Source of the DNA: a virus
DNA: 12,900 nt
Virus genome (UHGV): UHGV-0200016
Direction: 5' to 3' (one strand)
The position numbers were made by a program, and so were the translations under genes. This document shows, piece by piece, positions 1-11,725 of the stretch; positions within the stretch are counted from its first letter, which is position 1; each line of letters opens with the position of its first letter. Under the pieces are notes generated by a model that searched no databases, was not told the DNA's origin, and worked only from the letters and a program-made list of their open reading frames with translations.

Positions 1-852
1 GTTTTCAAATTGTTCCGGACTGAGGCCGCCACACCAACTGTGCCGCCGCCACCGATTGTAATCACATTCGATATAATTAAACACCGTTGCCCGCATTATT
101 TCCCGGCTGATAAAGTGTTCTCCATGGATACATTCCACTTTCAGCGAATGAAAGAAGCTTTCCACGCAGGCATTATCGTAGCAGCAACCTTTTGCGCTCA
201 TACTTCCACGCAGATTATGCCGCTTCAGTTGCGCCTGATAATCTGCTGAACAGTACTGGCCTCCACGGTCCGTGTGAACGATAACGTTCCGGGGCCTCTT
301 ACGCCGCCACAGCGCCATCTGCAGGGCATCGCAGGCCAGTTGCGCCGTCATGCGTGGCGACATTGACCAGCCAATAACGGCACGTGACCACAGGTCAATG
401 ACCACTGCCAGATACAGCCAGCCTTCATCTGTACGTAAGTACGTGATGTCTCCTGCCCACTTCTGGTTCGGGCCACTGGCGTAAAAATCCTGCTCCAACA
501 GATTTTCTGACACAGGCAGGCCGTGTGCGCGGTAGCTGACCGGGCTGAACTTCCGGGAGGCCTTTGCCCTCAGTCCCTGACGGCGCAGGCTTGCCGCCAC
601 GGTTTTTACGTTAAAGGGGTAACCCTGAGCACGCAGTTCATCCGTCAGGCGTGGGGCACCGTAACGCTGTTTTGACCGGGTAAAAGCCGCGAGGACAACG
701 CTGTCGCAGTGTTGGCGGAACTGCTGACGCGTGCTTATCCTTGTCCGCCGCTGACACCACGTATACCAGCCGCTGCGGGCCACCCGGAGCACGCGGCACA
801 TTGCTTTGATGCTGAACTCAGCCTGATGTTTTTCAATAAAGACATACTTCAT
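1..852 (-). CDS. insF: IS3 transposase OrfB (InsF), 3'-partial (last few codons and stop lie before position 1)
   Basis: Minus-strand translation from the ATG at 852-850 gives [22 protein letters not shown]... and runs to ...[10 protein letters not shown] at the window edge, matching IS3 InsF as I recall it. It overlaps the orfA stop as expected for the -1 frameshift arrangement. It is absent from the ORF track because no stop lies in the window. Confidence 0.9.
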
Positions 853-1148
853 TTCAGGCGCTTCGCGAAGTATGTCGCGGCCTTTTGGAGGATAGCCAGC
901 TCTTCATCCCGTTCTGCCAGCTGGCGTTTGAGACGTGCAATCTCGGTAGACATCTCCAGTTCACGTTCAGAAGACGTCTGCTGATTTTGCTGTTTACTGC
1001 GCCAGTTGTAGAGCTGTGATTCATACAGGCTGAGTTCACGGGCTGCGGCAGTAACACCGATGCGTTCAGCAAGCTTCAGGGCTTCACTGCGAAATTCAGG
1101 CGAATGCTGTTTACGGGGTTTTTTACTGGTTGATACTGTTTTTGTCAT
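849..1148 (-). CDS. insE: IS3 transposase OrfA (InsE), 99 aa
   Basis: ORF track 849..1157 (minus) gives [34 protein letters not shown]...[15 protein letters not shown]. The canonical protein begins at MTKTVS (ATG at 1148-1146); the track begins at an upstream GTG. HTH-type IS3-family OrfA. Confidence 0.9.
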
Positions 1149-1269
1149 GTGAGTCACCTCTGACTGAGAGTTTACTCACTTAGCCGCGTGTCCACTATTG
1201 CTGGGTAAGATCAGGATTCTATCGATGTGGTCAATGGAAGACGGTTACCAGAGATAGGGCTTATGCATA

Positions 1270-1296
1270 AAAAAATAAGCCCGTGTAAGGGAGATT
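1270..1296. other. attL core (P2 att core, 27 bp)
   Basis: Exact 27-mer AAAAAATAAGCCCGTGTAAGGGAGATT, identical to the copy at 11555-11581, lying 80 bp from the integrase stop. It matches the P2 att core as I recall it. Confidence 0.75.
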
Positions 1297-1375
1297 TAGG
1301 GTGTCACCAGTAGGGGCTTTCAACGGTACAATGCGGGTTTGAGCGGCATAAATTACCACTGAAAGCCCTTAAACG

Positions 1376-2389
1376 TTACTCTACTGTGGACACTGTGTGG
1401 ACACTCTCGACCTCAGTACCACCTCTTAGCGGATTAAGAGAAATGGCGTCCTGAAGGTACTCTGGCGCAAAATGAGCGTAAACCATAGTTTGCTCAATCC
1501 GCGTGTGACCTAGTATCCGTTGTAGCGTGATAATACTTCCTCCATTAATCATGAAATGAGTGGCAAAGCTGTGCCTTAGTGCATGTGTAGCTTGCCCCAT
1601 TGGCAAATCCGGTTTTATTGCTTTCATTGTTCGTCTGAAGCGAGGGTAATCAGCATCAGGGAATAAAAAACCTCGTTTGTTATCCGCGATCATTTTGGCA
1701 ACAGCCTCTGAGATCGGGACGGTGCGTGGTTTGTTTGTTTTCGTTTTAACAAACGTGACGCGGTTATGGATGATATTTTCTGCTTTCAAACGAGCTGCTT
1801 CTCCCCAACGTGCTCCAGTACTCAGGCAAAGAATCGCAATCTTTTTGTTGTCGCCGTCAAGAGCAGCAAGCAGTAAGGCAATTTCTTCCTGCGTGAGATA
1901 GCCTGTGTCTGGTTTTTCCTCCTTAAGCCTTTTTGTCCCTCTGATAGGGTGCTCACCAAAGAATAACTCCGCTTCAATCAGGGCTGTAAACATGCCGCTA
2001 ATACATGTTAAATCACGATTGATACTCGAAGGTTTAATACCCTGACTTCTTCGGGTGGCGCAGTACTGGCTGATAAGCGATTTCGTAATTTGAAATGCGC
2101 ATGGGTCATTCGTTATTTTTGTGAAGATTTCAATTTTCCCAAGATTAGATTTCCCATGCTCTTCGTGTTTACCCTTTAAATCCCACCAGATCTGTGTCAG
2201 CTCCGACAGACGTCGCTTGTCTGTTGGTTTTGATAGCCATTCTTTATTGTGGTGGTTGTACAACGTGTATTTCTCGAAAGCGACAGCTTCGCTTTTCTTA
2301 TCAAACTTCCTACGGATGCGTTTTCCATTACGTCCAGTAGGGCGGATGTCCACTTCATATCGACCATCATCGAGTTTTTTGATTGCCAT
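1376..2389 (-). CDS. int: P2-type tyrosine integrase, 337 aa
   Basis: ORF track 337 aa: MAIKKLDDGRYEVDIRPTGRNGKRIRRKFDKK ... HALRHSFATHFMINGGSIITLQRILGHTRIEQTMVYAHF. It carries the tyrosine-recombinase R..HxxR..Y box and is close to residue-for-residue my recollection of P2 Int. Confidence 0.95.
   Translation of the reverse strand: MAIKKLDDGRYEVDIRPTGRNGKRIRRKFDKKSEAVAFEKYTLYNHHNKEWLSKPTDKRRLSELTQIWWDLKGKHEEHGKSNLGKIEIFTKITNDPCAFQITKSLISQYCATRRSQGIKPSSINRDLTCISGMFTALIEAELFFGEHPIRGTKRLKEEKPDTGYLTQEEIALLLAALDGDNKKIAILCLSTGARWGEAARLKAENIIHNRVTFVKTKTNKPRTVPISEAVAKMIADNKRGFLFPDADYPRFRRTMKAIKPDLPMGQATHALRHSFATHFMINGGSIITLQRILGHTRIEQTMVYAHFAPEYLQDAISLNPLRGGTEVESVHTVSTVE
1385..1404. promoter_or_regulatory. 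Tandem TGTGGACAC direct repeats; probable Int arm-type binding sites (P arm), inside the 3' end of int
   Basis: tgtggacac at 1385-1393 and 1396-1404, 11 bp apart. A matching pair with the same spacing lies on the other arm at 11496-11514. P2 Int arm sites are, from memory, direct repeats of roughly this consensus. Confidence 0.5.
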
Positions 2390-2504
2390 CAGAAAACCCT
2401 CCGAGTGGTGTGTTTTTTTGCGACTACTAATCGCTTTTTTCGTGGTGGCTGAAATTTAGCCACCAATAGTAGGCACTTGTGATGAATATATTCACGATGA
2501 ATTG

Positions 2505-2804
2505 TTAACCAGTCTTTTGACCGGAGTGGGGCGACGTTGTTTCGTTTTGCCCAAAGTGTGCGAGAGCGGGCGCAATTTGCCCGGACTCAGGAGCGATCTG
2601 ATTGGTCATGAACCATAAAGTGTATTTGGTGAATTGTGGGGTCTGCAGGATGTTCATCATGACATCTGTTGGAGGTGTTGAACGACCACTTTCATAGTAA
2701 CTCAGCGTGCCATACGGAACCCCTGTTAAATCAGCAAGTTGTTGTCTGCTCAAATACTCTGATTTTCGCATTAAGACTATCTTCTCGCTTATCGTGTTTG
2801 ACAT
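2505..2804 (-). CDS. C: P2 immunity repressor C, 99 aa
   Basis: ORF track 99 aa: MSNTISEKIVLMRKSEYLSRQQLADLTGVPYGTLSYYESGRSTPPTDVMMNILQ... It has an HTH, sits between int and cox and is divergent from cox, as in P2. Confidence 0.9.
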   Translation of the reverse strand: MSNTISEKIVLMRKSEYLSRQQLADLTGVPYGTLSYYESGRSTPPTDVMMNILQTPQFTKYTLWFMTNQIAPESGQIAPALAHFGQNETTSPHSGQKTG

Positions 2805-2918
2805 GGTGTTTAGATCTCAATAGTATTTAGTTTAGATGTAGATTGTTTAGTGCTTGGATGTGGGCACTAAAAGGCATTATAAGACATTAAACGCAATTCA
2901 TGAGGGCTAGAGGACGAC
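2805..2918. promoter_or_regulatory. P2 Pc/Pe divergent promoter and operator (lysogeny/lysis switch) region
   Basis: A 114-bp AT-rich intergenic region between divergent C and cox start codons, containing reiterated TTTAG elements (tatttagtttagatgtagattgtttagtg, 2823-2852). Exact operator boundaries not determined. Confidence 0.5.
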
Positions 2919-3527
2919 ATGAGCAAGCAAGTAACACTCATGACTGATGCGATTCCTTATCAGGAGTTCGCAAAACTAATAGGAAAATCGACAGGAGCGG
3001 TTCTCGGCGCGCGTCATATTCATATCACCAGAACGACGGACTGGCGCATTGTTCCGAAAGTTCCGGTCGTGGAGCCTTTAACTTTAAAAAGCGGCATCGC
3101 CGCGCCTCGGAGTCCTGTCAATAACTGTGGAAAGCTCACCGGTGGTGATACTTCGTTACCGGCTCACACACCTTCTGAGCACGCCGCAGCAGTGCTTAAT
3201 CTGGTTGATGACGGTGTTATTGAATGGAATGAACCGGAGGTCGTGAGGGCGCTCAGGGGGGCATTAAAACACGACCTGAGAACACCAAACCGTCAGCAAA
3301 GAAACGGAAGCCCGTTAAAACCACATGAAATTGCACCATCGGCCAGACTGACCCGGTCGGAAAGAATGCAAATTACCCGTATCCGCGTTGACCTTGCTCA
3401 GAACGGTATCAGGCCGCAGCGATGGGAGCTTGAGGCGCTGGCGCGTGGCGCGACCGTAAATTATTACGGGAAATCTTTCAATTATCAGGTCGCTGATGAG
3501 TGGCCTGGATTTTTGTTACCCATTTGA
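2919..3527 (+). CDS. cox N-terminus (about 28 codons) fused in frame to an unrelated 174-codon reading frame, possibly the 3' part of an early/replication gene; probable deletion product
   Basis: ORF track 202 aa. The first 28 residues, MSKQVTLMTDAIPYQEFAKLIGKSTGAV, match P2 Cox (a 91-aa protein). From about nt 3003 the sequence departs completely (LGARHIHITRTTDW...) and continues to 3527. SD agagga lies upstream of the ATG. Confidence 0.6.
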   Translation: MSKQVTLMTDAIPYQEFAKLIGKSTGAVLGARHIHITRTTDWRIVPKVPVVEPLTLKSGIAAPRSPVNNCGKLTGGDTSLPAHTPSEHAAAVLNLVDDGVIEWNEPEVVRALRGALKHDLRTPNRQQRNGSPLKPHEIAPSARLTRSERMQITRIRVDLAQNGIRPQRWELEALARGATVNYYGKSFNYQVADEWPGFLLPI

Positions 3528-3786
3528 GTAAAAATGCAGCGTGATTTTATATGCCTTTGAATGGATTATGCGAAGCGCCTCTAAGGCAGATGAGGAGCAA
3601 TAGCATGCTGAAGTAGAAGGCTAAATTGTATTGAATCGCTAGCATGTAATTTAAAGCAGCTATTTGATTCGAGTCATAAAAGAGCATCTATTTCGGCTAA
3701 TAAAACCATTGCGAGTGACCTTTTGTCGAAGCATAATTCATCTCGAGCGAAGTCTTGCTAGTCTTTCATCGGAATGATGACAGGCG

Positions 3787-3817
3787 CAAAAAAACCACCC
3801 TGGCAGGTGGTTTTTTT
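3787..3817. terminator. Bidirectional rho-independent terminator
   Basis: aaaaaaaccaccctggcaggtggttttttt: a GC-rich hairpin (ccaccctg/caggtgg) flanked by an A-run on the 5' side and a T-run on the 3' side, so it is terminator-like on both strands. Confidence 0.6.
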
Positions 3818-3829
3818 GTTTGAAGCATA

Positions 3830-3943
3830 CTAAAGAATAATACTTACATGGATATTACTGACGTTTACTGACAAACCACTTGGACTACCATATGGATAGC
3901 CAAAGAGGGCCAGAACGAGAATGCAGTAATAGCACTTCTTCAT
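3830..3943 (-). CDS. Hypothetical small hydrophobic protein, 37 aa (below ORF-track cutoff)
   Basis: Minus-strand ATG at 3943 preceded by a strong SD (caggaggagat-ATG). Translation is MKKCYYCILVLALFGYPYGSPSGLSVNVSNIHVSIIL, with stop at 3832-3830 immediately followed by the terminator at 3787-3817. Coding status is unproven. Confidence 0.3.
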   Translation of the reverse strand: MKKCYYCILVLALFGYPYGSPSGLSVNVSNIHVSIIL

Positions 3944-4518
3944 ATCTCCTCCTGTAAGCAGAGGGCAATTTCCGCCGATATATGCGCTTCTAAGGCGGAG
4001 TTACTATTTAGCGAAGTCTTGCCCTGAAATAATGCTCTGTTTAAACGCAAAGTGATCTGGCATATCACCGAACAGAGAGCCTGAACAACACAACATATAG
4101 TATGTCGTTGTTTCTGGTTGCATTTTATGTTGTGTAATCCTGGTTTTGCATCAAGGATGTTTGAGCTTTTTTTGATATAGCTCAAAGTAAAAAGCAGAGA
4201 CTACGGATGATAAGGTATTGAAAGCAATGTAAATTTTTTAAAGTTATTGGCGGCTAAAAAATGCACGGTTTCAATATGGTGGACTTAAATAAGCAATTAA
4301 AAAAGTCATAAATATCACTAAAATCATGGTGTTACGTTTTTTTTGTGGGAGCTGCGGTGACGCTTAAGTTGATTTGTCATTAAATAAGCCGTGCATGCAA
4401 CAAGTGAATGTTTTTGCATGCGTCGGGGATGCCCGTTCCGGCTGCTTGCGGTCAGAGCTGGTGCGGATCCATAGTATCTATGCAACTGCATTAAAACCGC
4501 CACATGAAGCGGGCGGGC

Positions 4519-4537
4519 GAGGCGGGGAAAGCACTGC
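4519..4537. other. P2-type cos site (19-nt cohesive-end sequence)
   Basis: ggcgaggcggggaaagcac matches the P2/186 cohesive-end sequence as I recall it. It sits in a GC-rich island of about 165 bp (roughly 4380-4545) between AT-rich segments. Confidence 0.6.
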
Positions 4538-4694
4538 GCGCAAAATGTTCTTGAAATATTTGTGACATAAGCTAAGACACAAAATGATTGAAGGGCAGAG
4601 CAAATCCTACAGTCCTATGCTATTGTCTCATGTAATGCAGATAAGTTGAAAATTATCTTAAAATATAAGAGTAAAGACATTAAAAGGATTGGTT

Positions 4695-6956
4695 ATGAAT
4701 AATAACTCTAAGTTATTAAGCTCTATCTCGGTTGAATCTGATTTCGAGAACCTTATAAAACTATATGCAAATGAGTTATTTGGTGGTGAAACATATCTGA
4801 TCGGTGGTCCTTGGGATAATGGAAAGGATTTGGTAATAAAAAAGGGGAATAGAGAGTTAAAGCAAGCTGTACAAATATCTATTCAAGAGAAAAATATTGA
4901 AAGTAAGATTGCTCAAGATATTAAAAAAGTGGCGAAATTGGTTGATGATCATTATTACCCGCCTGTATTATATTTTTTTTGGAGTCATTCAATATCTGAG
5001 CATTTATTGGATAAGATAAGAACAAATGCTCTTAAGGAAGATTTGATTAGATTGGAGTTTTATGATGCCAAACGGATCTCTCAAGATATTACAGATAAAT
5101 ACCCAGGGTTATTGAATTACTTAATAAAAGATATACATAAGATAAGTTCTAATACTGAAGATGCAATTAACTTGCAACAAAGAGCATTTTATGAATATTT
5201 ATTGTTAAGCAAAGATAGTGCTAATTTAAAAAATGAAATAATAAAAGCTAGTATTATGTCTAATTTATATGATGGCGGGAAGTCTGCTGATGATATTCTA
5301 GAGAATCTAAAAGGTGTTAGTCTTACAAAACGTAGTTTACAGGGTAGACTGCAAAACCTAATTCATCAAAATAAAATTAGATTGAATGATGGTATATATA
5401 GCCTGTCACCAGAGGAAATTAAAAAGCTTGAGAATATAAATCTCCGTGAAATTGTCAGAAAAGAAGAGTTGTTATCAGTAATAAATAATGAGTTGCCCAG
5501 AAATACAAGTAAGAATCTGGCTGTTCAAGTTGTTGATTTAATAATAAAGGCTTATGAAGAATCAATAAATGTCCAATTAACAGAAAGTAAATTTGAGCCT
5601 CCAAAATTACAGATATTCAAAACTATAGTACATAATTTAAAGGTGTTGATACGGCAGGAATATGATTTGGATGATGAGTCTTCGGATGCTTTAGCAAAAA
5701 AGCTAATGGAGTTGGCTGGTCAAAATGACTATTTATCCGAGCATTGCTCTGCTAAATTATGTGTGAATCTTTTAAGTGATCGGAAATTAGAGAAATATAT
5801 TGAAAATAAAAATTTTTATATCTACTTTGATGCGCCTGTTCTTATTCCATATTTGATAACTCTTATGTTTGGAGATTTTGAGCTTTTTGATAAGTCGATT
5901 AAAAATATAAATTTACTGAGAGAGTGCATAAATCCCCTCAAAAATAAACATCTGAGAGTTTCTAATGAACATTTTGAAGAAACTGCAAGGCACTACTCTG
6001 AAGCTGAAAAATTAAGTCAGTTTGTAACTGAAGATTTAATTAGTCAACTTGGTGAGTCGAAAAATGTATACTTTAATGTTTATATGCGGTGGAAAAACAA
6101 ACAGCCTAAACGTACAGATTTTTACGATTTTACTTATGCTTTTCTAGGGTTGGATAAAGATGATATTTATGCGGGGTATAAGCATGACACATTTGCGCAA
6201 TGCATTCATAATTTACTAGCGTCAGCAAATATTGTTGTAATTGATAATAAAGACTCGGTGTCACAAGACTTTGTATTTAAAATAAAGCAAAAACTTAAAA
6301 GGGATTTGAATTCTTCACGTCCCGTTCGAGCCATAGAAAATGATGTTATATGTGCTGCAACTTTGAGTGATGAAACCCTACATCTTGATTCCAATGGTTA
6401 CTTCAGTACTCCCATGCTAATAACGCTTGATAGATCTCAATATCTATTGAGAAGCATAGTAAGAAATGAAAGGAGACATGCTGAATGGTTGGTTTATACC
6501 CCTCAAAGAGCAATTGAACGTCTTTCCTTGGTGGGTTTAAAAATATCATCGGAATCGTTAAAGGATGGTGTTTTAGCAACCATATCAGAAGAATATTTCT
6601 TTAAAGAAAGTTCCAGTAGTTTGATTGATACTTTGGCTATTATCATTGGAGATAATCAAGCAAGGCAAGGAGATGTTATTAGGCTTGCATCGCTTTTAAA
6701 AAGAAAGGTCAATGAGGAATCTATTGAGAATTCAGAAATTGATATTGAACACTATAATAACATTAGTTATGTGCTTCTTTTCATTCATCGTGAATTTAAA
6801 TCTGAATTTTCAAATATAATAAAAATTTTTGCTGAGGATAGTAGGCGAGATAAACTGGTTGAAGTTTTGTTATCCACTATTCAAGGAGTTTTTGATGAGA
6901 GTAAAAAGGAAATCTTGCGCTCAAATATAGGACGGTTGTTGGCTGAAATGGGATGA
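4695..6956 (+). CDS. Hypothetical protein of about 753 aa with an N-terminal restriction-endonuclease-like (Mrr-type) motif; candidate anti-phage defence protein
   Basis: ORF track 4689..6956 (755 aa from a TTG). I prefer the ATG at 4695, which has SD aagga 6 nt upstream. The gene is strongly AT-rich and Lys/Asn/Ile-rich, unlike the flanking P2 genes. Residues about 25-100 (FENLIKLYANELFGGETYLIGGPWDNGKDLVIKKGNRELKQAVQIS...PVLYFFWSHSIS) resemble the Mrr catalytic-core pattern. A hairpin terminator follows at 6973-7005. Confidence 0.85.
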   Translation: MNNNSKLLSSISVESDFENLIKLYANELFGGETYLIGGPWDNGKDLVIKKGNRELKQAVQISIQEKNIESKIAQDIKKVAKLVDDHYYPPVLYFFWSHSISEHLLDKIRTNALKEDLIRLEFYDAKRISQDITDKYPGLLNYLIKDIHKISSNTEDAINLQQRAFYEYLLLSKDSANLKNEIIKASIMSNLYDGGKSADDILENLKGVSLTKRSLQGRLQNLIHQNKIRLNDGIYSLSPEEIKKLENINLREIVRKEELLSVINNELPRNTSKNLAVQVVDLIIKAYEESINVQLTESKFEPPKLQIFKTIVHNLKVLIRQEYDLDDESSDALAKKLMELAGQNDYLSEHCSAKLCVNLLSDRKLEKYIENKNFYIYFDAPVLIPYLITLMFGDFELFDKSIKNINLLRECINPLKNKHLRVSNEHFEETARHYSEAEKLSQFVTEDLISQLGESKNVYFNVYMRWKNKQPKRTDFYDFTYAFLGLDKDDIYAGYKHDTFAQCIHNLLASANIVVIDNKDSVSQDFVFKIKQKLKRDLNSSRPVRAIENDVICAATLSDETLHLDSNGYFSTPMLITLDRSQYLLRSIVRNERRHAEWLVYTPQRAIERLSLVGLKISSESLKDGVLATISEEYFFKESSSSLIDTLAIIIGDNQARQGDVIRLASLLKRKVNEESIENSEIDIEHYNNISYVLLFIHREFKSEFSNIIKIFAEDSRRDKLVEVLLSTIQGVFDESKKEILRSNIGRLLAEMG

Positions 6957-6972
6957 TTTCTTGGTTATTGAA

Positions 6973-7005
6973 CGGCACTATGGTCGTTGCTTATAGTGCC
7001 GTTTT
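6973..7005 (+). terminator. Rho-independent terminator downstream of the AT-rich gene
   Basis: cggcactat-ggtcgttgctt-atagtgccg followed by tttt: a 9-bp stem with an 11-nt loop, 17 bp after the stop codon. Confidence 0.55.
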
Positions 7006-7047: not shown

Positions 7048-8082
7048 TTAGGTATCGCAAGTATCTAGTGAGTAGTTTTTAAAGCGGATGACCTCCTGAC
7101 CGAGCCAGCCGTTTATCTCGCGGATCCTGTCCTGTAACGGGATAAGCTCATTGCGGACAAAGACCTTTGCCACTTTCTCAATATCGCCCAGTGACCCGAC
7201 GTTCTCCGGCTTGCCGCCCATCAACTGAAAGGGGATGCGGTGCGCGTCCAGTAGGTCAGCGGCGCTGGCTTTTTTGATATTAAAAAAATCGTCCTTCGTT
7301 GCGACTTCACTGAGCGGGATAATTTTAATGCCGTCGGCTTTCCCCTGTGGGGCATAGAGAAACAGATTTTTAAAGTTGTTGCGGCCTTTCGACTTCACCA
7401 TGTTTTCGCGGAGCATTTCGATATCGTTGCGATCCTGCACGGCATCAGTGACGTACATGATGTATCCGGCATGTGCGCCGTTTTCGTAATACTTGCGGCG
7501 GAACAGCGTGGCCGACTCATTCAGCCAGGCAGAGTTAAGGGCGCTGAGATATTCCGGCAGGCCGTACAACTCCTGATTAATATCCGGCTCCAGCAGGTGA
7601 AACACGGAGCCGGGCGCGAAGGCTGTCGGTTCGTTGAAGGACGGCACCCACCAGTAAACATCCTCTTCCACCCCACGGCGGGTATATTTTGCCGGTGAGG
7701 TTTCCAGTCTGATGACCTTACCGGTGGTGCTGTAACGCTTTTCCAGAAACGCATTACCAAACACCAGAAAATCCAGCACAAAGCGGCTGAAATCCTGTTG
7801 TGAAAGCCACGGATGCGGGATAAATGTCGAGGCCAGAATATTACGTTTGACGTAAATCGGTGAGCTGTGATGTACGGCAGCACGCAGGCTTTTTGCCAGA
7901 CCGGTAAAGCTGACCGGTGGCTCATACCATCTGCCGTTACTGATGCACTCGACGTAATCCAGAATGTCACGGCGGTCGAGTACCGGCACCGGCTCACCAA
8001 AGGTGAATGCCTCCATTTTCGGGGCGCTGGCGGTCATTGTTTTTGCCGCAGGTTGCGGTGTTTTCCCTTTTTTCTTGCTCAT
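7048..8082 (-). CDS. Q: P2 portal (capsid portal) protein Q, 344 aa
   Basis: ORF track 344 aa: MSKKKGKTPQPAAKTMTASAPKMEAFTFGEPVPVLDRRDILDYVECISNGRWYEPP... It matches my recollection of P2 gpQ in sequence and length, and its start overlaps the stop of the upstream P fragment (TGATG). Confidence 0.9.
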   Translation of the reverse strand: MSKKKGKTPQPAAKTMTASAPKMEAFTFGEPVPVLDRRDILDYVECISNGRWYEPPVSFTGLAKSLRAAVHHSSPIYVKRNILASTFIPHPWLSQQDFSRFVLDFLVFGNAFLEKRYSTTGKVIRLETSPAKYTRRGVEEDVYWWVPSFNEPTAFAPGSVFHLLEPDINQELYGLPEYLSALNSAWLNESATLFRRKYYENGAHAGYIMYVTDAVQDRNDIEMLRENMVKSKGRNNFKNLFLYAPQGKADGIKIIPLSEVATKDDFFNIKKASAADLLDAHRIPFQLMGGKPENVGSLGDIEKVAKVFVRNELIPLQDRIREINGWLGQEVIRFKNYSLDTCDT

Positions 8083-8360
8083 CAGTAAAACTCCAGAATG
8101 GTGGATGTCAGCGGGGTGCTGATACCGGCGGTGAGTGGCTCATTTAACAGGGCGTGCATGGTCGCCCAGGCGAGGTCGGCGTGGCTGGCTTCCTCGCTGC
8201 GGCTGGCCTCATAGGTGGCGCTGCGTCCGCTGCTGGTCATGGTCTTGCGGATAGCCATAAACGAGCTGGTGATGTCGGTGGCGCTGACGTCGTATTCCAG
8301 ACAGCCACGGCGGATAACGTCTTTTGCCTTGAGCACCATTGCGGTTTTCATTTCCGGCGT
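8082..8360 (-). pseudogene. P: 3' fragment of terminase ATPase gene P (about 90 C-terminal codons); the 5' part is deleted
   Basis: A minus-strand open frame ends at 8082 (...LTAGISTPLTSTILEFY) with its stop overlapping the Q start, as for P2 P-Q. P is about 590 aa in P2, so only the 3' end is present. Assignment rests on synteny and coupling, not on confirmed homology. The upper boundary is approximate. Confidence 0.5.
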
Positions 8361-9245
8361 GTACCCGCACCGGATGTGGTCGAGGAGCTGGACTTTGAAA
8401 CCATTCTTGCCGAACGCAAGGCGACACTGATTTCCCTTTACCCGGAAGACCAGCAGGAGGCGGTCGCCCGTACCCTGACGCTGGAATCTGAGCCTCTCGT
8501 CAAACTGCTGGAGGAAAATGCTTATCGTGAGCTTATCTGGCGTCAGCGTGTGAATGAGGCCGCACGGGCGGTGATGCTGGCCTGTGCTGCCGGTAATGAC
8601 CTTGATGTGATTGGTGCCAATTACAACACCACGCGCCTGATTATCACCCCGGCAGATGATTCGACTATCCCGCCGACACCGGCAGTGATGGAGTCTGACA
8701 CCGATTACCGGCTGCGTATTCAGCAGGCGTTTGAAGGTTTAAGCGTCGCCGGGTCGGTGGGTGCCTATCAGTATCATGGCCGCAGTGCCGACGGGCGTGT
8801 CGCGGATATCTCTGTCACCAGTCCGTCTCCGGCCTGTGTCACCATCTCTGTGCTGTCACGTGAAAATAACGGTGTCGCTTCCGAAGACCTGCTGGCGGTG
8901 GTGCGTAACGCCCTTAATGGCGAGGACGTCAGGCCGGTGGCCGACCGCGTGACCGTGCAGTCTGCCGCCATCGTTGAATACCAGATAAACGCCACGCTGT
9001 ATCTTTACCCTGGTCCCGAAAGCGAACCCATTCGCGCTGCCGCCGTGAAAAAACTGGAAGCGTATATCACGGCACAGCACCGGCTGGGGCGCGACATCCG
9101 TCTGTCTGCCATTTATGCCGCTTTGCATGTGGAAGGCGTACAGCGTGTCGAACTGGCTGCACCGCTGGCCGACATCGTGCTCAACAATACGCAGGCGTCT
9201 TTCTGTACCGAATACCACGTCGTGACCGGAGGCTCGGATGAGTGA
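8361..9245 (+). CDS. J: Baseplate assembly protein J, apparently missing its first roughly 10 codons and its native start and promoter
   Basis: ORF track 8154..9245. From VPAPDVVEELDFETILAERKATLISLYPEDQQEAV... onward it matches P2 gpJ as I recall it. The 70 codons upstream in frame (MHGRPGEVGVAG...) are antisense to the P fragment and are not J-like. Confidence 0.75.
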   Translation, partial: VPAPDVVEELDFETILAERKATLISLYPEDQQEAVARTLTLESEPLVKLLEENAYRELIWRQRVNEAARAVMLACAAGNDLDVIGANYNTTRLIITPADDSTIPPTPAVMESDTDYRLRIQQAFEGLSVAGSVGAYQYHGRSADGRVADISVTSPSPACVTISVLSRENNGVASEDLLAVVRNALNGEDVRPVADRVTVQSAAIVEYQINATLYLYPGPESEPIRAAAVKKLEAYITAQHRLGRDIRLSAIYAALHVEGVQRVELAAPLADIVLNNTQASFCTEYHVVTGGSDE

Positions 9246-9849
9246 TTCGCGACTGCTGCCGACCGGCTCATCACCGCTTGAGGTCGCCGCCGCAAAAGCC
9301 TGTGCGGAAATTGAAAAAACGCCGGTCAGTATTCGTGAGTTGTGGAACCCGGACACCTGCCCGGCAAATCTGCTGCCGTGGCTGGCGTGGTCATTTTCGG
9401 TTGACCGCTGGGATGATAAGTGGCCGGAAGCGACAAAACGCGCTGTTATCCGCGATGCGTATTTCATTCACTGCCATAAGGGCACTATTGGTGCGATTCG
9501 CCGTGTGGTGGAGCCACTCGGCTATCTGATTGAGGTGAGGGAGTGGTGGCAGCTCAACGAGGAGCCGGGGACGTTCCGTATCGTTGTCGGCGTGCTTGAG
9601 CAGGGTATTACCGAGGAAATGTATCAGGAGCTGGAGCGCCTCGTTGCTGATGCAAAACCGGCAAGCCGCCATCTGACGGGACTGGCTATCAGTTTAAGTA
9701 CAACCGGCAACATTTTTGCCGGTGCGGGATGCTATCACGGCGACGCCCTGACGGTTTATCCCTACACCCCGGAGGCCATTATTGTCGGAGGGGATTATTT
9801 CCCGGCCTCGGCCATTCATTTAATTGATAACCTGAGAGTAAACGCATGA
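9238..9849 (+). CDS. I: Baseplate protein I (P2 gpI-like), 203 aa
   Basis: ORF track 203 aa: MSDSRLLPTGSSPLEVAAAKACAEIEKTPVSIRELWNPDTCPANLLPWLAWSF... The ATG overlaps the J stop (ATGA) and the stop overlaps the next gene's start, giving the J-I-H order of P2. Confidence 0.85.
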   Translation: MSDSRLLPTGSSPLEVAAAKACAEIEKTPVSIRELWNPDTCPANLLPWLAWSFSVDRWDDKWPEATKRAVIRDAYFIHCHKGTIGAIRRVVEPLGYLIEVREWWQLNEEPGTFRIVVGVLEQGITEEMYQELERLVADAKPASRHLTGLAISLSTTGNIFAGAGCYHGDALTVYPYTPEAIIVGGDYFPASAIHLIDNLRVNA

Positions 9850-11153
9850 CAGTGAAATACTACGCCATTCTGACTAATCAGGGCGCAGCACGGCTGGCTA
9901 ACGCGACGATGCTCGGCAGTAAGCTGAATCTGACGCAAATGGCCGTTGGTGATGCGAATGGTGTATTACCGACACCAGACCCGGCACAGACAAAACTGAT
10001 TAACCAGAAACGCATTGCACCGCTGAATATTCTGAGCGTTGACCCTAACAATCAGAGCCAGATTATTGCGGAGCAAATTATCCCTGAAAACGAGGGAGGA
10101 TTCTGGATCCGTGAGATTGGGCTTTATGATGATGAAGGCGTACTCATTGCGGTGGCGAACTGCCCGGAAACGTACAAACCGCAGTTGCAGGAAGGCAGTG
10201 GTCGTACCCAGACTATCCGCATGATTCTGGTTGTCACGAATACCGAAGCTATTACGCTGAAAATCGACCCGTCGGTGGTACTGGCGACCCGTAAATACGT
10301 GGATGATGAAGTCCTGGAATTAAGGCTGTATGTGGATGAACAGATGAGAAACCACATTGCCGCACAGGATCCTCATACCCAGTATGCACAGAAACATAAT
10401 CCGACATTTACCGGAGAACCAAAAGCGCCGACGCCTGCCGCAGGAAATAACACCACGCGGATTGCGACCACTGCGTTTGTACAGGCTGCTATTACCGCTC
10501 TGATTAACGGCGCGCCAGCCACGCTGGACACACTGAAAGAAATTGCCGCGGCCATTAACAATGACCCGAAATTCAGCACCACCATTAACAATGCGCTGTC
10601 AGGTAAGCAGCCACTGGATGAGACGCTGACTCATTTGAGTGGAAAGGATGTTGGAGCCTACACCGGCGTAACGGCAAAGTGGTTACACACCAAAGACCCG
10701 AAGCCGCAAAAGCAGAAGGTAAAACTGAAACGCAAAAAGAAAGAGAAACACCTGCGCGCACTGGAGCACCCGAAAGCGAAACCGGTCAGGCAGAAGAAAG
10801 CGCCAAAAGTACCGGAAGCGCGCGAAGGTGAATACATGGCCGGTGAGGCTGACAACGTTTTTGCCCTGACCACGGTATATGCCACGAAAGCACAGGCCAT
10901 GCGTGCTGCTCAGGCGAAGTGGGATAAACTGCAACGGGGCGTTGCGGAGTTCTCCATCATCCTGGCTACCGGTCGTGCAGATATTTACACGGAAACACCG
11001 GTCAGAGTGTCAGGCTTTAAGCGCGTCATAGACGAGCAGGACTGGACAATCACTAAGGTGACACATTTTCTGAATAATAGCGGCTTCACGACGTCCTTGG
11101 AGCTTGAGGTCAGGCTTTCTGATGTGGAGTACGAAACAGAAGATGATGAGTGA
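9846..11153 (+). CDS. Chimeric ORF: tail-fibre H-like N-terminal domain (about 270 aa) fused to the C-terminal part of tail protein D; deletion product
   Basis: ORF track 435 aa. The N-terminus (MTVKYYAILTNQGAARLA...GGFWIREIGLYDDEGVLIAVANCPETYKPQLQEGSGRTQT...) has the P2 gpH-type tail-fibre N-terminal signature. The C-terminus (...PVRVSGFKRVIDEQDWTITKVTHFLNNSGFTTSLELEVRLSDVEYETEDDE) is the gpD end that immediately precedes ogr in P2. A Lys-rich linker lies between. G, Z/fun, FI, FII, E, T, U and most of D are absent. Confidence 0.65.
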   Translation: MTVKYYAILTNQGAARLANATMLGSKLNLTQMAVGDANGVLPTPDPAQTKLINQKRIAPLNILSVDPNNQSQIIAEQIIPENEGGFWIREIGLYDDEGVLIAVANCPETYKPQLQEGSGRTQTIRMILVVTNTEAITLKIDPSVVLATRKYVDDEVLELRLYVDEQMRNHIAAQDPHTQYAQKHNPTFTGEPKAPTPAAGNNTTRIATTAFVQAAITALINGAPATLDTLKEIAAAINNDPKFSTTINNALSGKQPLDETLTHLSGKDVGAYTGVTAKWLHTKDPKPQKQKVKLKRKKKEKHLRALEHPKAKPVRQKKAPKVPEAREGEYMAGEADNVFALTTVYATKAQAMRAAQAKWDKLQRGVAEFSIILATGRADIYTETPVRVSGFKRVIDEQDWTITKVTHFLNNSGFTTSLELEVRLSDVEYETEDDE

Positions 11154-11234
11154 TGTTTTGTTTTTATCTGTTTGTTTTATAAGGATAAATTAACTAAAAT
11201 GGCACCATTAACAAAACCGGAAGAGGTGCTCGCG

Positions 11235-11453
11235 ATGTTTCATTGTCCTTTATGCCAGCATGCCGCACATGCGCGTACAAGCCGCTATATCACTGACACG
11301 ACAAAAGAGCGTTATCACCAGTGCCAGAACGTGAATTGCAGCGCCACGTTCATCACTTATGAGTCGGTACAGCGATACATCGTGAAGCCGGGAGAAGTCC
11401 ACGCCGTGAGGCCGCACCCGTTGCCGTCAGGGCAGCAAATTATGTGGATGTAA
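11235..11453 (+). CDS. ogr: P2 late-gene transcriptional activator Ogr (zinc-finger), 72 aa
   Basis: MFHCPLCQHAAHARTSRYITDTTKERYHQCQNVNCSATFITYESVQRYIVKPGEVHAVRPHPLPSGQQIMWM with the C-x2-C...C-x4-C zinc finger. The ORF track begins 21 codons upstream (11172), but the canonical start is the ATG at 11235. Confidence 0.9.
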   Translation: MFHCPLCQHAAHARTSRYITDTTKERYHQCQNVNCSATFITYESVQRYIVKPGEVHAVRPHPLPSGQQIMWM

Positions 11454-11464
11454 TTACAAACAGA

Positions 11465-11490
11465 AAGCCCCTCAGTCGAGGGGCTTTTTT
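11465..11490 (+). terminator. Rho-independent terminator of ogr
   Basis: aagcccctc-agtc-gaggggctt followed by tttt, 12 bp after the ogr stop. Confidence 0.7.
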
Positions 11491-11495
11491 GTCGA

Positions 11496-11514
11496 TGTGG
11501 TCAATGTGTGGACG
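11496..11514. promoter_or_regulatory. Direct repeats TGTGGTCA / TGTGGACG; probable Int arm-type binding sites (P' arm)
   Basis: tgtggtca at 11496-11503 and tgtggacg at 11507-11514, 11 bp apart, mirroring the pair at 1385-1404 on the int-proximal arm. Confidence 0.45.
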
Positions 11515-11554
11515 TGACCAGAAATAAATCCTTTTATTTCAATTTGTTGTACGT

Positions 11555-11581
11555 AAAAAATAAGCCCGTGTAAGGGAGATT
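11555..11581. other. attR core (P2 att core, 27 bp)
   Basis: Exact copy of AAAAAATAAGCCCGTGTAAGGGAGATT, followed by AT-rich non-phage DNA leading into the convergent host gene. Confidence 0.75.
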
Positions 11582-11725
11582 ACACAGGCTAAGGAGGTGG
11601 TTCCTGGTACAGCTAGCATTTTATGGGTTATGTTTTTCAGCGAAACGGATGATAACCTTAATAAATGCAGCTGTATGTGATCGGTTTCTAAGAATTTTCC
11701 ATCCGGGAAAAATAATCGAAATTAA

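What the first reader, a model, noticed from the sequence alone, without database searches (positions are those of the whole stretch)
9846..11153. In-frame tail-fibre H N-terminus fused to tail protein D C-terminus through a lysine-rich linker
Seen in sequence: a 435-aa ORF whose first roughly 270 residues carry a tail-fibre N-terminal (baseplate-attachment) signature similar to, but clearly diverged from, P2 gpH, and whose last roughly 100 residues are the gpD C-terminus that precedes ogr. In between is an unusual Lys-rich stretch (KPQKQKVKLKRKKKEKHLRALEHPKAKPVRQKKAPK, about nt 10690-10800). The divergence of the H-like part from P2 H, alongside near-P2-identical int/C/Q/ogr, suggests mosaic ancestry. 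Whether the Lys-rich stretch is native D sequence or a junction artefact cannot be decided by eye. E. coli K-12 yegZ is, from memory, a comparable D fragment next to ogrK.
Basis: partly seen in the sequence, partly recalled or inferred. Interest (0 to 1): 0.4.

Follow-up and report, generated by a model that had tools for sequence, protein, structure and literature searches.

The report
Deletion-made tail-fibre/hub fusion ORF
The 435-codon gene is a leftover of a decaying P2-like prophage, made when an 8.4-kb deletion joined the start of the tail-fibre gene in frame to the end of the baseplate-hub gene; it is real but an ordinary product of prophage decay.

Summary
The ORF at 9846-11153 exists and is a chimera. 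Residues 1-269 are the N-terminus of a P2-like tail fibre (gpH), 266/269 identical to phage pro483 H. Residues 270-435 are gpD residues 222-387, 164/166 identical to P2 gpD. The joint lies at window 10652/10653 on a 2-base "TG" overlap and keeps D's reading frame. Relative to intact relatives it removes about 8.4 kb: the H 3' end, G, the invertible fibre segment, FI, FII, E/E', T, U and the first 221 codons of D.

The Lys-rich stretch (aa 286-321, nt 10701-10808) is not a linker or junction artefact. It starts 16 residues after the joint and is native gpD sequence, identical in P2 and pro483 over the part compared.

The prophage (attL 1270-1296, attR 11555-11581) carries two more microhomology deletions and has lost all four Ogr-dependent late promoters and most structural genes.

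The same junction occurs in one E. coli sub-lineage: 1 of 5,426 complete genomes and 106 contigs elsewhere. The K-12 yegZ remnant has a different breakpoint. Three other in-frame H::D fusions with other breakpoints exist.

Most likely this is a non-functional by-product of decay, so interest is low. A side lead is an uncharacterised 755-aa nuclease-like gene in the P2 defence hotspot.

The parts
9846..11153 (+). Chimeric ORF H'::'D, 435 aa (WP_206642421.1, annotated 'phage tail-collar fiber domain-containing protein')
   Evidence: ORF list; Pfam PF12571 + partial PF05954; RefSeq annotation of strain 1218KP
9846..10653 (+). H-derived part: codons 1-269 of a pro483-type tail-fibre gene H (baseplate-attachment / tail-collar N-terminal domain plus the first shaft repeat)
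   Evidence: 96.7% DNA identity to pro483 19058-19865; 266/269 aa identical; 99.9% DNA identity over these 808 nt to E. coli 2196 prophage H (H32)
10652..10653 (.). Deletion junction: 2-base 'TG' shared by both parents. H homology ends at 10653 and D homology starts at 10652, with D's frame preserved.
   Evidence: Three-way base alignment and frame arithmetic; same coordinates against pro483, P2 and the intact prophage L015
10652..11153 (+). D-derived part: gpD residues 222-387 (C-terminal 43% of the baseplate hub protein)
   Evidence: 97.0% DNA identity to pro483 28310-28811; 164/166 aa identical to P2 gpD; aa 343-419 align to the pyocin R2 chain 6u5h_C residues 246-320
10701..10808 (+). Lys-rich stretch KPQKQKVKLKRKKKEKHLRALEHPKAKPVRQKKAPK (aa 286-321). 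It is native gpD sequence and an insertion relative to the Pfam GPD model.
   Evidence: Identical over the printed part in intact P2 and pro483 gpD; the whole D part differs from P2 only at aa 372 and 387; coordinates; 159 query residues span 123 model positions
9238..9849 (+). Gene I (203 aa), intact, with its stop overlapping the chimera's start (ATGA)
   Evidence: Pfam Tail_P2_I, 3e-56; same protein accession WP_001285340.1 as in an intact prophage
8362..9245 (+). 'J: baseplate gene J lacking its first 25 nt, its ribosome-binding site and the pV promoter
   Evidence: Window 8362 corresponds to P2 11317, while J starts at P2 11292; junction alignment
8082..8363 (-). P': 3' fragment of the large terminase gene, joined tail-to-head to 'J by a 9.8-kb deletion with a 2-base overlap at 8362-8363
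   Evidence: blastn against P2; junction alignment; RefSeq pseudogene annotation
7048..8082 (-). Portal gene Q, intact (344 aa)
   Evidence: Pfam Phage_portal; 97.9% identical to P2
11235..11453 (+). ogr (OgrK), the late-gene activator, intact (72 aa by the RefSeq start)
   Evidence: Pfam Ogr_Delta, 1.6e-21; RefSeq annotation
11555..11581 (.). attR: 27-bp P2 att core, identical to attL, lying inside the 3' end of the cyaR gene
   Evidence: Exact match to P2 24356-24382; Rfam CyaR at 11558-11643 on the minus strand, 100.7 bits
1270..1296 (.). attL: 27-bp P2 att core, the left end of the 10.3-kb remnant
   Evidence: Exact match to the P2 attP core
2919..3527 (+). Second in-frame deletion chimera, cox'::'A: Cox aa 1-28 fused to the last ~175 aa of replication protein A. 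It comes from a 3.7-kb deletion with a 6-base overlap at 3002-3007.
   Evidence: blastn against P2; junction and translations; PHROG 272 (Cox, aa 4-29) plus PHROG 91 (A, aa 29-195)

Best explanation
The ORF is a chimeric pseudogene created by one illegitimate-recombination deletion in a P2-like prophage integrated at the cyaR/ogrK site. The deletion removed about 8.4 kb between a 2-base 'TG' in codons 269/270 of the tail-fibre gene H and the same dinucleotide in codons 221/222 of the hub gene D. By chance (1 in 3) it left D in frame. The open frame therefore encodes H(1-269) followed by D(222-387).

Shown: the exact parents, the breakpoint, the frame, the native origin of the Lys-rich stretch, the loss of the partner genes and of all four late promoters, and the restriction of this junction to one E. 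coli sub-lineage.

Inferred: the product has no function. It lacks the receptor-binding C-terminus of H and its chaperone G. It keeps only the last ~40% of the hub domain, which cannot build the hub ring. It has no sheath, tube, tape measure or spike to assemble with, and it has no recognisable promoter.
For: Collinearity on both sides of the joint with three intact phages or prophages at identical coordinates (H nt 808 / D nt 663): pro483, P2 for the D side and the E. coli 2196 prophage. Base-by-base junction with the 2-nt overlap and frame arithmetic. D part 164/166 identical to P2 gpD, including the Lys-rich stretch. Two further deletions in the same prophage have 6-nt and 2-nt overlaps, so the element is in multi-step decay. 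The P2 activator sites for pP/pO (3057-3087), pV (10239-10266) and pF (17555-17583) all fall in segments absent from the window. The only TGT-N12-ACA motifs are at 827 and 11569, fewer than the chance expectation, and there is no sigma-70-like site upstream of 'J-I-H'. No phage record covers at least 80% of the protein in one place. Only 1 of 5,426 complete E. coli genomes has the joint. The exact protein occurs on 106 contigs, always at the yegR...ogrK-trhP site in isolate genomes. One carrier has lost a further ~8 kb from the IS3 end (L005). Three other in-frame H::D fusions with different breakpoints exist (P0009-P0011), and P0011 sits in an otherwise complete prophage at another att site.
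Against: The ORF is intact and identical in more than 100 assemblies, and its native start (coupled to the stop of I) is preserved, so some translation from read-through transcripts cannot be excluded. Both same-strand deletions in this prophage are in frame (chance about 1/9). In-frame H::D fusions recur, which could hint at selection, although out-of-frame events would not be seen by a protein search. No expression data were available.
Confidence: 0.93

Rival explanations
1. The fusion protein is made and retained because it is useful. For example, it could act as a dominant-negative decoy whose H N-terminal baseplate-attachment domain or D fragment poisons tail assembly of superinfecting P2-like phages.
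For: The ORF is open with its native translational start and is identical on 106 contigs. It survives a further deletion in L005. At least four independent in-frame H::D fusions exist. Gene I, whose stop overlaps the chimera's start, is intact.
Against: No promoter is detectable and all Ogr-dependent late promoters are deleted. Sequence identity among carriers indicates a recent origin and says nothing about constraint. The few variants differ in dense patches typical of recombination or assembly mixing with other P2 alleles, so they carry no signal of selection on the chimera. The junction is rare, at 1 of 5,426 complete genomes. The protein search can only find in-frame events. There is no PADLOC hit.
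Confidence: 0.04
2. The chimera is an assembly artefact, a mis-join of two parts of a complete prophage.
For: Some metagenome contigs with this junction look mosaic, and one (L010) continues into a different chromosomal site, pflB-focA.
Against: The junction is identical in independent isolate assemblies, including chromosome-scale contigs of 4.9-5.0 Mb, and in many draft and Logan assemblies. The deleted genes are absent from the locus, which runs continuously into ogr, attR, cyaR and trhP.
Confidence: 0.01
3. It is the native architecture of a tail protein from an undescribed P2-like phage or tailocin, i.e. a true fibre-hub fusion.
For: Both Pfam domains sit in one polypeptide, and the NCBI pipeline annotates it as an ordinary CDS.
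Against: Each half is 97% or more identical in DNA to separate genes of intact phages, and the break falls in the middle of the GPD domain (model position ~182 of 305). No phage among 50,697 records has it. The locus lacks sheath, tube, tape measure, spike and head genes.
Confidence: 0.01

Closest known systems
E. coli K-12 cryptic P2 remnant yegZ-ogrK (between yegR and cyaR/yegQ)
   Same: It occupies the same chromosomal site and orientation. It retains the 3' end of gene D, ogr and attR next to cyaR and trhP(yegQ).
   Different: K-12 keeps only 71 codons of D (from about window 10941), joined directly to part of the attL core (about window 1287). It has no H part and no int, C, Q, J or I. 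Its D-ogr DNA is 96.2% identical to the window, against 98.6-99.9% for alignments that are mainly chromosomal flank. This suggests a separate deletion and probably a separate phage allele.
Intact gpH (tail fibre) and gpD (baseplate hub) of P2-like phages: pro483 gp31/gp42, P2 gpD, E. coli 2196 prophage
   Same: The two halves are 97% or more identical to these genes. The N-terminal tail-collar domain and the C-terminal hub segment, including the basic insertion, are unchanged.
   Different: H lacks residues 270 to the end (the receptor-binding part). D lacks residues 1-221. The 8.4 kb between them is gone.
Other in-frame H::D deletion fusions in enterobacterial P2-like prophages (P0009 680 aa, P0010 539 aa, P0011 632 aa)
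   Same: They have the same two-domain make-up (PF12571 + PF05954) produced by loss of the G-to-U tail block. P0011 lies directly before ogr in a prophage.
   Different: They come from a different phage lineage (H part ~74-75% identical to pro483 H, D part 44-53% identical to P2 gpD). Their breakpoints differ: D starts at about residue 116 in P0009, 163 in P0011 and roughly 200 in P0010. The P0011 prophage is otherwise complete and sits at ybjL-grxA.

Membership tests
P2-type tail fibre gpH (Phage_tail_fib, PF12571) | N-terminal tail-collar / baseplate-attachment domain | tested here: met
   PF12571 covers positions 1-150 of 150, E=2.7e-62; 266/269 identical to pro483 H
P2-type tail fibre gpH (Phage_tail_fib, PF12571) | C-terminal shaft and receptor-binding domain, followed by the tail-fibre assembly gene G | tested here: not met
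   H homology stops at codon 269. No G homologue follows, and the next gene is ogr.
Baseplate hub gpD (Phage_GPD, PF05954; gp27/VgrG-like) | Complete GPD domain (about 305 model positions) | tested here: not met
   Only model positions 182-304 are matched, at 31.3 bits against a cut-off of 30.1. D residues 1-221 are absent.
Baseplate hub gpD (Phage_GPD, PF05954; gp27/VgrG-like) | Encoded at the end of the FI-FII-E-T-U-D tail operon under the pF promoter | tested here: not met
   FI, FII, E, T, U and the pF site (P2 17555-17583) all lie in the deleted interval
Cryptic (defective) P2-like prophage | Flanked by direct repeats of the P2 att core at a known type of integration site, and collinear with intact P2-like genomes | tested here: met
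   27-bp cores at 1270-1296 and 11555-11581 are identical to the P2 attP core. Collinear blocks match P2, pro483 and L015. The cyaR 3' end overlaps attR.
Cryptic (defective) P2-like prophage | Loss of genes essential for lytic growth | tested here: met
   About 10.3 kb remain of a ~30-33 kb genome. B, most of A, most of P, O-N-M-L, the lysis genes, R, S, V, W, G, FI-U and most of D are absent, and cox is truncated.
Deletion by illegitimate (microhomology) recombination | Abrupt switch between two collinear parental segments at a short shared sequence, with no inserted DNA | tested here: met
   A 2-nt 'TG' overlap and no filler bases. The other two junctions have 6-nt and 2-nt overlaps.
Anti-phage defence protein (PADLOC models) | Match to a known defence-system profile | tested here: not met
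   No PADLOC family at E<=0.01 for the chimera

The most novel reading that the evidence does not exclude
In-frame H'::'D chimeras are not neutral debris. They would be expressed at a low level from read-through transcription and act as dominant-negative assembly poisons (an orphan baseplate-attachment domain plus a hub fragment) that protect the host against superinfecting P2-like phages. This would explain why open H::D fusions arose at least four times and why this one stays intact while neighbouring genes are lost.
Probability: 0.03. Interest if true: 0.5.

Novelty: new member of a known kind. Interest (0 to 1): 0.1.

Why it matters
This matters little for biology. It is a clear, fully resolved example of how prophage decay by microhomology deletions produces open chimeric ORFs that annotation pipelines then name as ordinary phage proteins. 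Here the ORF is WP_206642421.1, 'phage tail-collar fiber domain-containing protein'.

It has some practical value. The junction is a precise lineage marker for one E. coli sub-lineage. The case also shows that PF12571+PF05954 'architectures' in protein databases are deletion artefacts of prophages and should not be read as a real fibre-hub fusion family. Finally, it shows that the occupied K-12-type cyaR/ogrK site has been filled and eroded independently in different lineages.

Tried and rejected
1. End-to-end homologue. I ran tblastn against 50,697 phage records and a word-indexed HMMER search of 5.8 billion proteins. Only same-junction copies cover the full length, so the 'single intact protein' reading is rejected.

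2. Lys-rich stretch as a linker or artefact. Rejected, because it is native gpD sequence.

3. Selection test on the chimera. I fetched DNA for the variants P0003, P0004 and P0005. The differences fall in dense patches: J, and D/ogr from window 10784 onward, plus patches in I and H' in L009. The 9218-10783 core is identical in two of the three loci. This means recombination or metagenome-assembly mixing with other P2 alleles, so dN/dS would reflect the donor phages and not the chimera. I abandoned the test.

4. K-12 yegZ as a descendant of the same deletion. Rejected, because the breakpoints differ and the prophage DNA is about 4% diverged.

5. Late promoter search using TGT-N12-ACA and a sigma-70 scan. 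Nothing was found upstream of the ORF.

6. Defence role. There is no PADLOC or NCBIfam hit for the chimera.

7. Junction 43-mer in 185,579 species-representative genomes: 0 hits.

8. Literature searches for yegZ/ogrK and for P2 attachment at cyaR found nothing useful. Statements on P2 site preference therefore rest on my own knowledge and on the direct att-core/CyaR overlap.

9. I built an alignment for a structure prediction of the chimera but did not submit it. The alignment was shallow and gappy, and a model would not change the verdict.

Full report
**Observation**

The window holds an ATG-to-stop ORF of 435 aa at 9846-11153 on the + strand. Its start overlaps the stop of the upstream gene I (ATGA), as H does in P2-like phages.

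Pfam finds the complete tail-collar fibre N-terminal domain (PF12571, aa 1-150, E=2.7e-62). It also finds only the last part of the baseplate-hub domain (PF05954, model positions 182-304 of 305, aa 254-412, E=1.6e-7, just above the cut-off).

**Parents and breakpoint**

Against phage pro483 (NC_028943), window 8362-10653 is collinear with 17574-19865 ('J, I and the first 808 nt of H; 97.0%). Window 10652-11541 is collinear with 28310-29200 (the last 502 nt of D, then ogr; 97.3%).

The same two coordinates (H nt 808, D nt 663) come out against an intact E. coli prophage in strain 2196. For the D side they also come out against reference P2.

The base-by-base view shows H sequence up to ...GGAAAGGATGTTG and D sequence from TGGAGCCTACACC..., sharing only 'TG' at 10652-10653, with no inserted bases. 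D position 28310 is a third codon position, and so is ORF position 807, so D stays in frame.

The protein is therefore H(1-269) + D(222-387). The H part is 266/269 identical to pro483 H, and the D part is 164/166 identical to P2 gpD. The deleted interval is 8,446 bp in pro483 coordinates and 8,439 bp in the strain 2196 prophage. It contains the 3' part of H, G, the invertible fibre segment with its invertase, FI, FII, E/E', T, U and codons 1-221 of D.

**The Lys-rich stretch**

The stretch KPQKQKVKLKRKKKEKHLRALEHPKAKPVRQKKAPK is ORF aa 286-321 (window 10701-10808; 17 of 36 residues are K or R). It begins 16 residues downstream of the joint.

The part printed side by side is identical in intact P2 and pro483 gpD. 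Over the whole D part the ORF differs from P2 gpD only at aa 372 and 387. So the stretch is native gpD (residues 238-273) and is neither a linker nor a junction product.

It appears as an insertion relative to the Pfam model: 159 residues span 123 model positions. A D protein of another P2-like lineage has a different but equally basic stretch at the same place (KKESTTVKRKRRTKKQKKEPEAK in P0009-P0011).

**Context: a prophage in multi-step decay**

The element is bounded by two identical 27-bp copies of the P2 att core, at 1270-1296 and 11555-11581. The right copy lies inside the 3' end of the CyaR sRNA gene (Rfam 100.7 bits, 11558-11643, minus strand), next to trhP(yegQ).

Only about 10.3 kb remain. 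Besides the H-D deletion there are two others.
- A 3.7-kb deletion joins cox codon 28 in frame to the last ~175 codons of A (ORF 2919-3527, with a 6-nt overlap at 3002-3007).
- A 9.8-kb deletion joins the 3' end of terminase gene P, on the opposite strand, to J at its 26th nucleotide (2-nt overlap at 8362-8363).

All three junctions are short-microhomology joints, which is the signature of illegitimate recombination.

**Expression signals**

The annotated Ogr-activator sites of the four P2 late promoters are pP/pO at 3057-3087, pV at 10239-10266 and pF at 17555-17583. All lie in segments missing from the window.

The motif TGT-N12-ACA occurs only at 827 (in IS3) and 11569 (in cyaR), fewer than the chance expectation. 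No sigma-70-like site lies upstream of the 'J-I-H'::'D block. Ogr is intact but has nothing left to activate here.

**Mosaic ancestry**

int-C-cox' is 99.4% identical to P2 but only 66-70% identical to pro483. P2 homology ends at window 9674 inside gene I, after which I-3'/H is of the pro483 type. The H part is only 42% identical in protein to reference P2 gpH. So the parent phage was a mosaic relative to both references. This is the usual situation for the I/H module of P2-like phages (my own knowledge of the family).

**Distribution**

Among 5,426 complete E. coli genomes, 2,393 match some part of the query. In all the best-ranked records the match is the H part alone (ORF nt 1-808). Only one genome (strain 1218KP) has the fused ORF.

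The exact protein occurs on 106 contigs in the 15-billion-protein collection. In isolate genomes it is always at yegR-IS3...ogrK-trhP, and the window is 100% identical to three of the four carrier loci fetched over the shared length. The fourth carrier (GCA_964055015.1) has lost a further ~8 kb from the IS3 end into gene I, which shows that decay is continuing.

The junction 43-mer is absent from 185,579 species-representative genomes.

Four near-identical variants (P0002-P0005) come from metagenome assemblies; I fetched DNA for three of them (P0003-P0005). Their differences are clustered in patches with the density of inter-phage alleles, and one contig continues into a different chromosomal site. 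I read these as recombinants or assembly mosaics, and they give no usable test of selection.

**Comparison with K-12**

In a K-12-type genome, yegR is followed by 75 bp that correspond to window 1213-1287, ending inside the attL core. This is joined with a 3-nt overlap to D at about window 10941 (71 codons), followed by ogrK. This is a different breakpoint.

The K-12 D-ogr DNA is 96.2% identical to the window. The alignments that are mainly chromosomal flank are 98.6-99.9% identical. yegZ is therefore analogous to the present chimera and did not descend from it.

**Recurrence**

The deep protein search found three other proteins that combine PF12571 and PF05954: P0009, P0010 and P0011. They come from a different P2-like lineage, and D starts at about residue 116, roughly 200 and 163 respectively. 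P0011 lies in an otherwise complete prophage at ybjL-grxA, directly before ogr.

H-to-D deletions are therefore a recurrent way of inactivating these prophages. A protein search can only reveal the in-frame third of such events, so recurrence alone does not indicate selection.

**Interpretation**

The best explanation (confidence about 0.93) is a chimeric pseudogene left by a single microhomology deletion, open by chance.

The product lacks the receptor-binding part of H and the chaperone G. It has only the last ~40% of the hub domain; aa 343-419 align to residues 246-320 of the 329-residue pyocin R2 chain 6u5h_C. It has no assembly partners and no promoter.

The rivals are a functional decoy (about 0.04), an assembly artefact (about 0.01) and a native fibre-hub protein (about 0.01). 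They are treated in their own section of this report.

**Novelty and interest**

Prophage erosion that leaves fused ORFs is well known, and this very site carries the classic K-12 remnant. This is a new, precisely mapped member of that kind. Interest is low (0.1).

**Side observations**

The most interesting thing in the window is not the finding itself. A 755-aa ORF (4689-6956) sits in a 29-35% GC island between cos and Q, inside the gpA-gpQ cos-proximal defence hotspot of P2-like phages described by Rousset et al. 2022 (PMC9122126). Its accession WP_053286240 is listed there only as a lone 'hypothetical'.
- It has no Pfam, PADLOC, PHROG or NCBIfam match.
- It has no match in 50,697 phage records, and its DNA is in 1 of 5,426 complete E. 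coli genomes.
- About 54 homologue clusters are scattered over Enterobacterales, Vibrio, Aeromonas, Shewanella and Burkholderia.
- It is a plausible but untested single-gene defence nuclease.

Noticed in passing
window 4689-6956 (+), inside the low-GC island at about 4500-7000: A 755-aa orphan ORF (WP_053286240) sits between cos and Q in the P2 gpA-gpQ defence hotspot. It has no Pfam, PADLOC, PHROG or NCBIfam hit, is absent from 50,697 phage records, and its DNA is in 1 of 5,426 complete E. coli genomes. About 54 homologue clusters are scattered across Gammaproteobacteria and Burkholderia. It is listed only as 'hypothetical' in Rousset 2022 Table S5. The AF2 model (pLDDT 79.5) shows REase-like, winged-helix and PIN-like domains, with invariant D41, D45, Q60, K71 and D379. 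It is a candidate single-gene anti-phage nuclease and is untested.
   Followed up: partly
window 2919-3527 (+): A second in-frame deletion chimera in the same prophage: Cox residues 1-28 fused to the last ~175 residues of replication protein A. It comes from a 3.7-kb deletion with a 6-nt overlap at 3002-3007. Loss of most of Cox should make the remnant non-excisable despite an intact int and intact att cores.
   Followed up: yes
window 8082-8376: A third junction: the 3' fragment of terminase gene P (minus strand) abuts J at its 26th nucleotide (9.8-kb deletion, 2-nt overlap at 8362-8363). A 363-aa ORF (8154-9245) reads from antisense P' into J. The RefSeq pipeline instead starts J at 8376.
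   Followed up: yes
window 11555-11643: The 27-bp P2 att core (attR) lies within the 3' terminator end of the CyaR (RyeE) sRNA gene (Rfam 100.7 bits, minus strand). The phage therefore integrates into, and regenerates, the end of an sRNA gene.
   Followed up: partly
window 1-1214, and L005 8271-9489: An IS3 copy ends at window 1214, 55 bp from attL, and is absent from this position in K-12. In one carrier genome (GCA_964055015.1) a deletion runs from the IS3 end to window ~9325 inside gene I with a 9-nt overlap, which looks like an IS-adjacent deletion.
   Followed up: partly
window 10701-10808; P2 gpD residues 238-273: Intact gpD of P2-like phages carries a ~36-residue, ~47% Lys/Arg insertion relative to the Pfam GPD model. 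A different but equally basic stretch occupies the same place in another P2-like lineage (P0009-P0011). Its role in the hub is unknown to me.
   Followed up: no
L010 (ENA ERZ27275571 k141_4054), 1258-5464: A metagenome contig carries the same H'::'D junction but continues after ogr into pflB-focA-ycaO instead of cyaR-trhP. From window 10784 onward its D-ogr allele differs by about 4-5%. It is probably an assembler join between the chimera and a second P2-like prophage, but a real recombinant is not excluded.
   Followed up: partly
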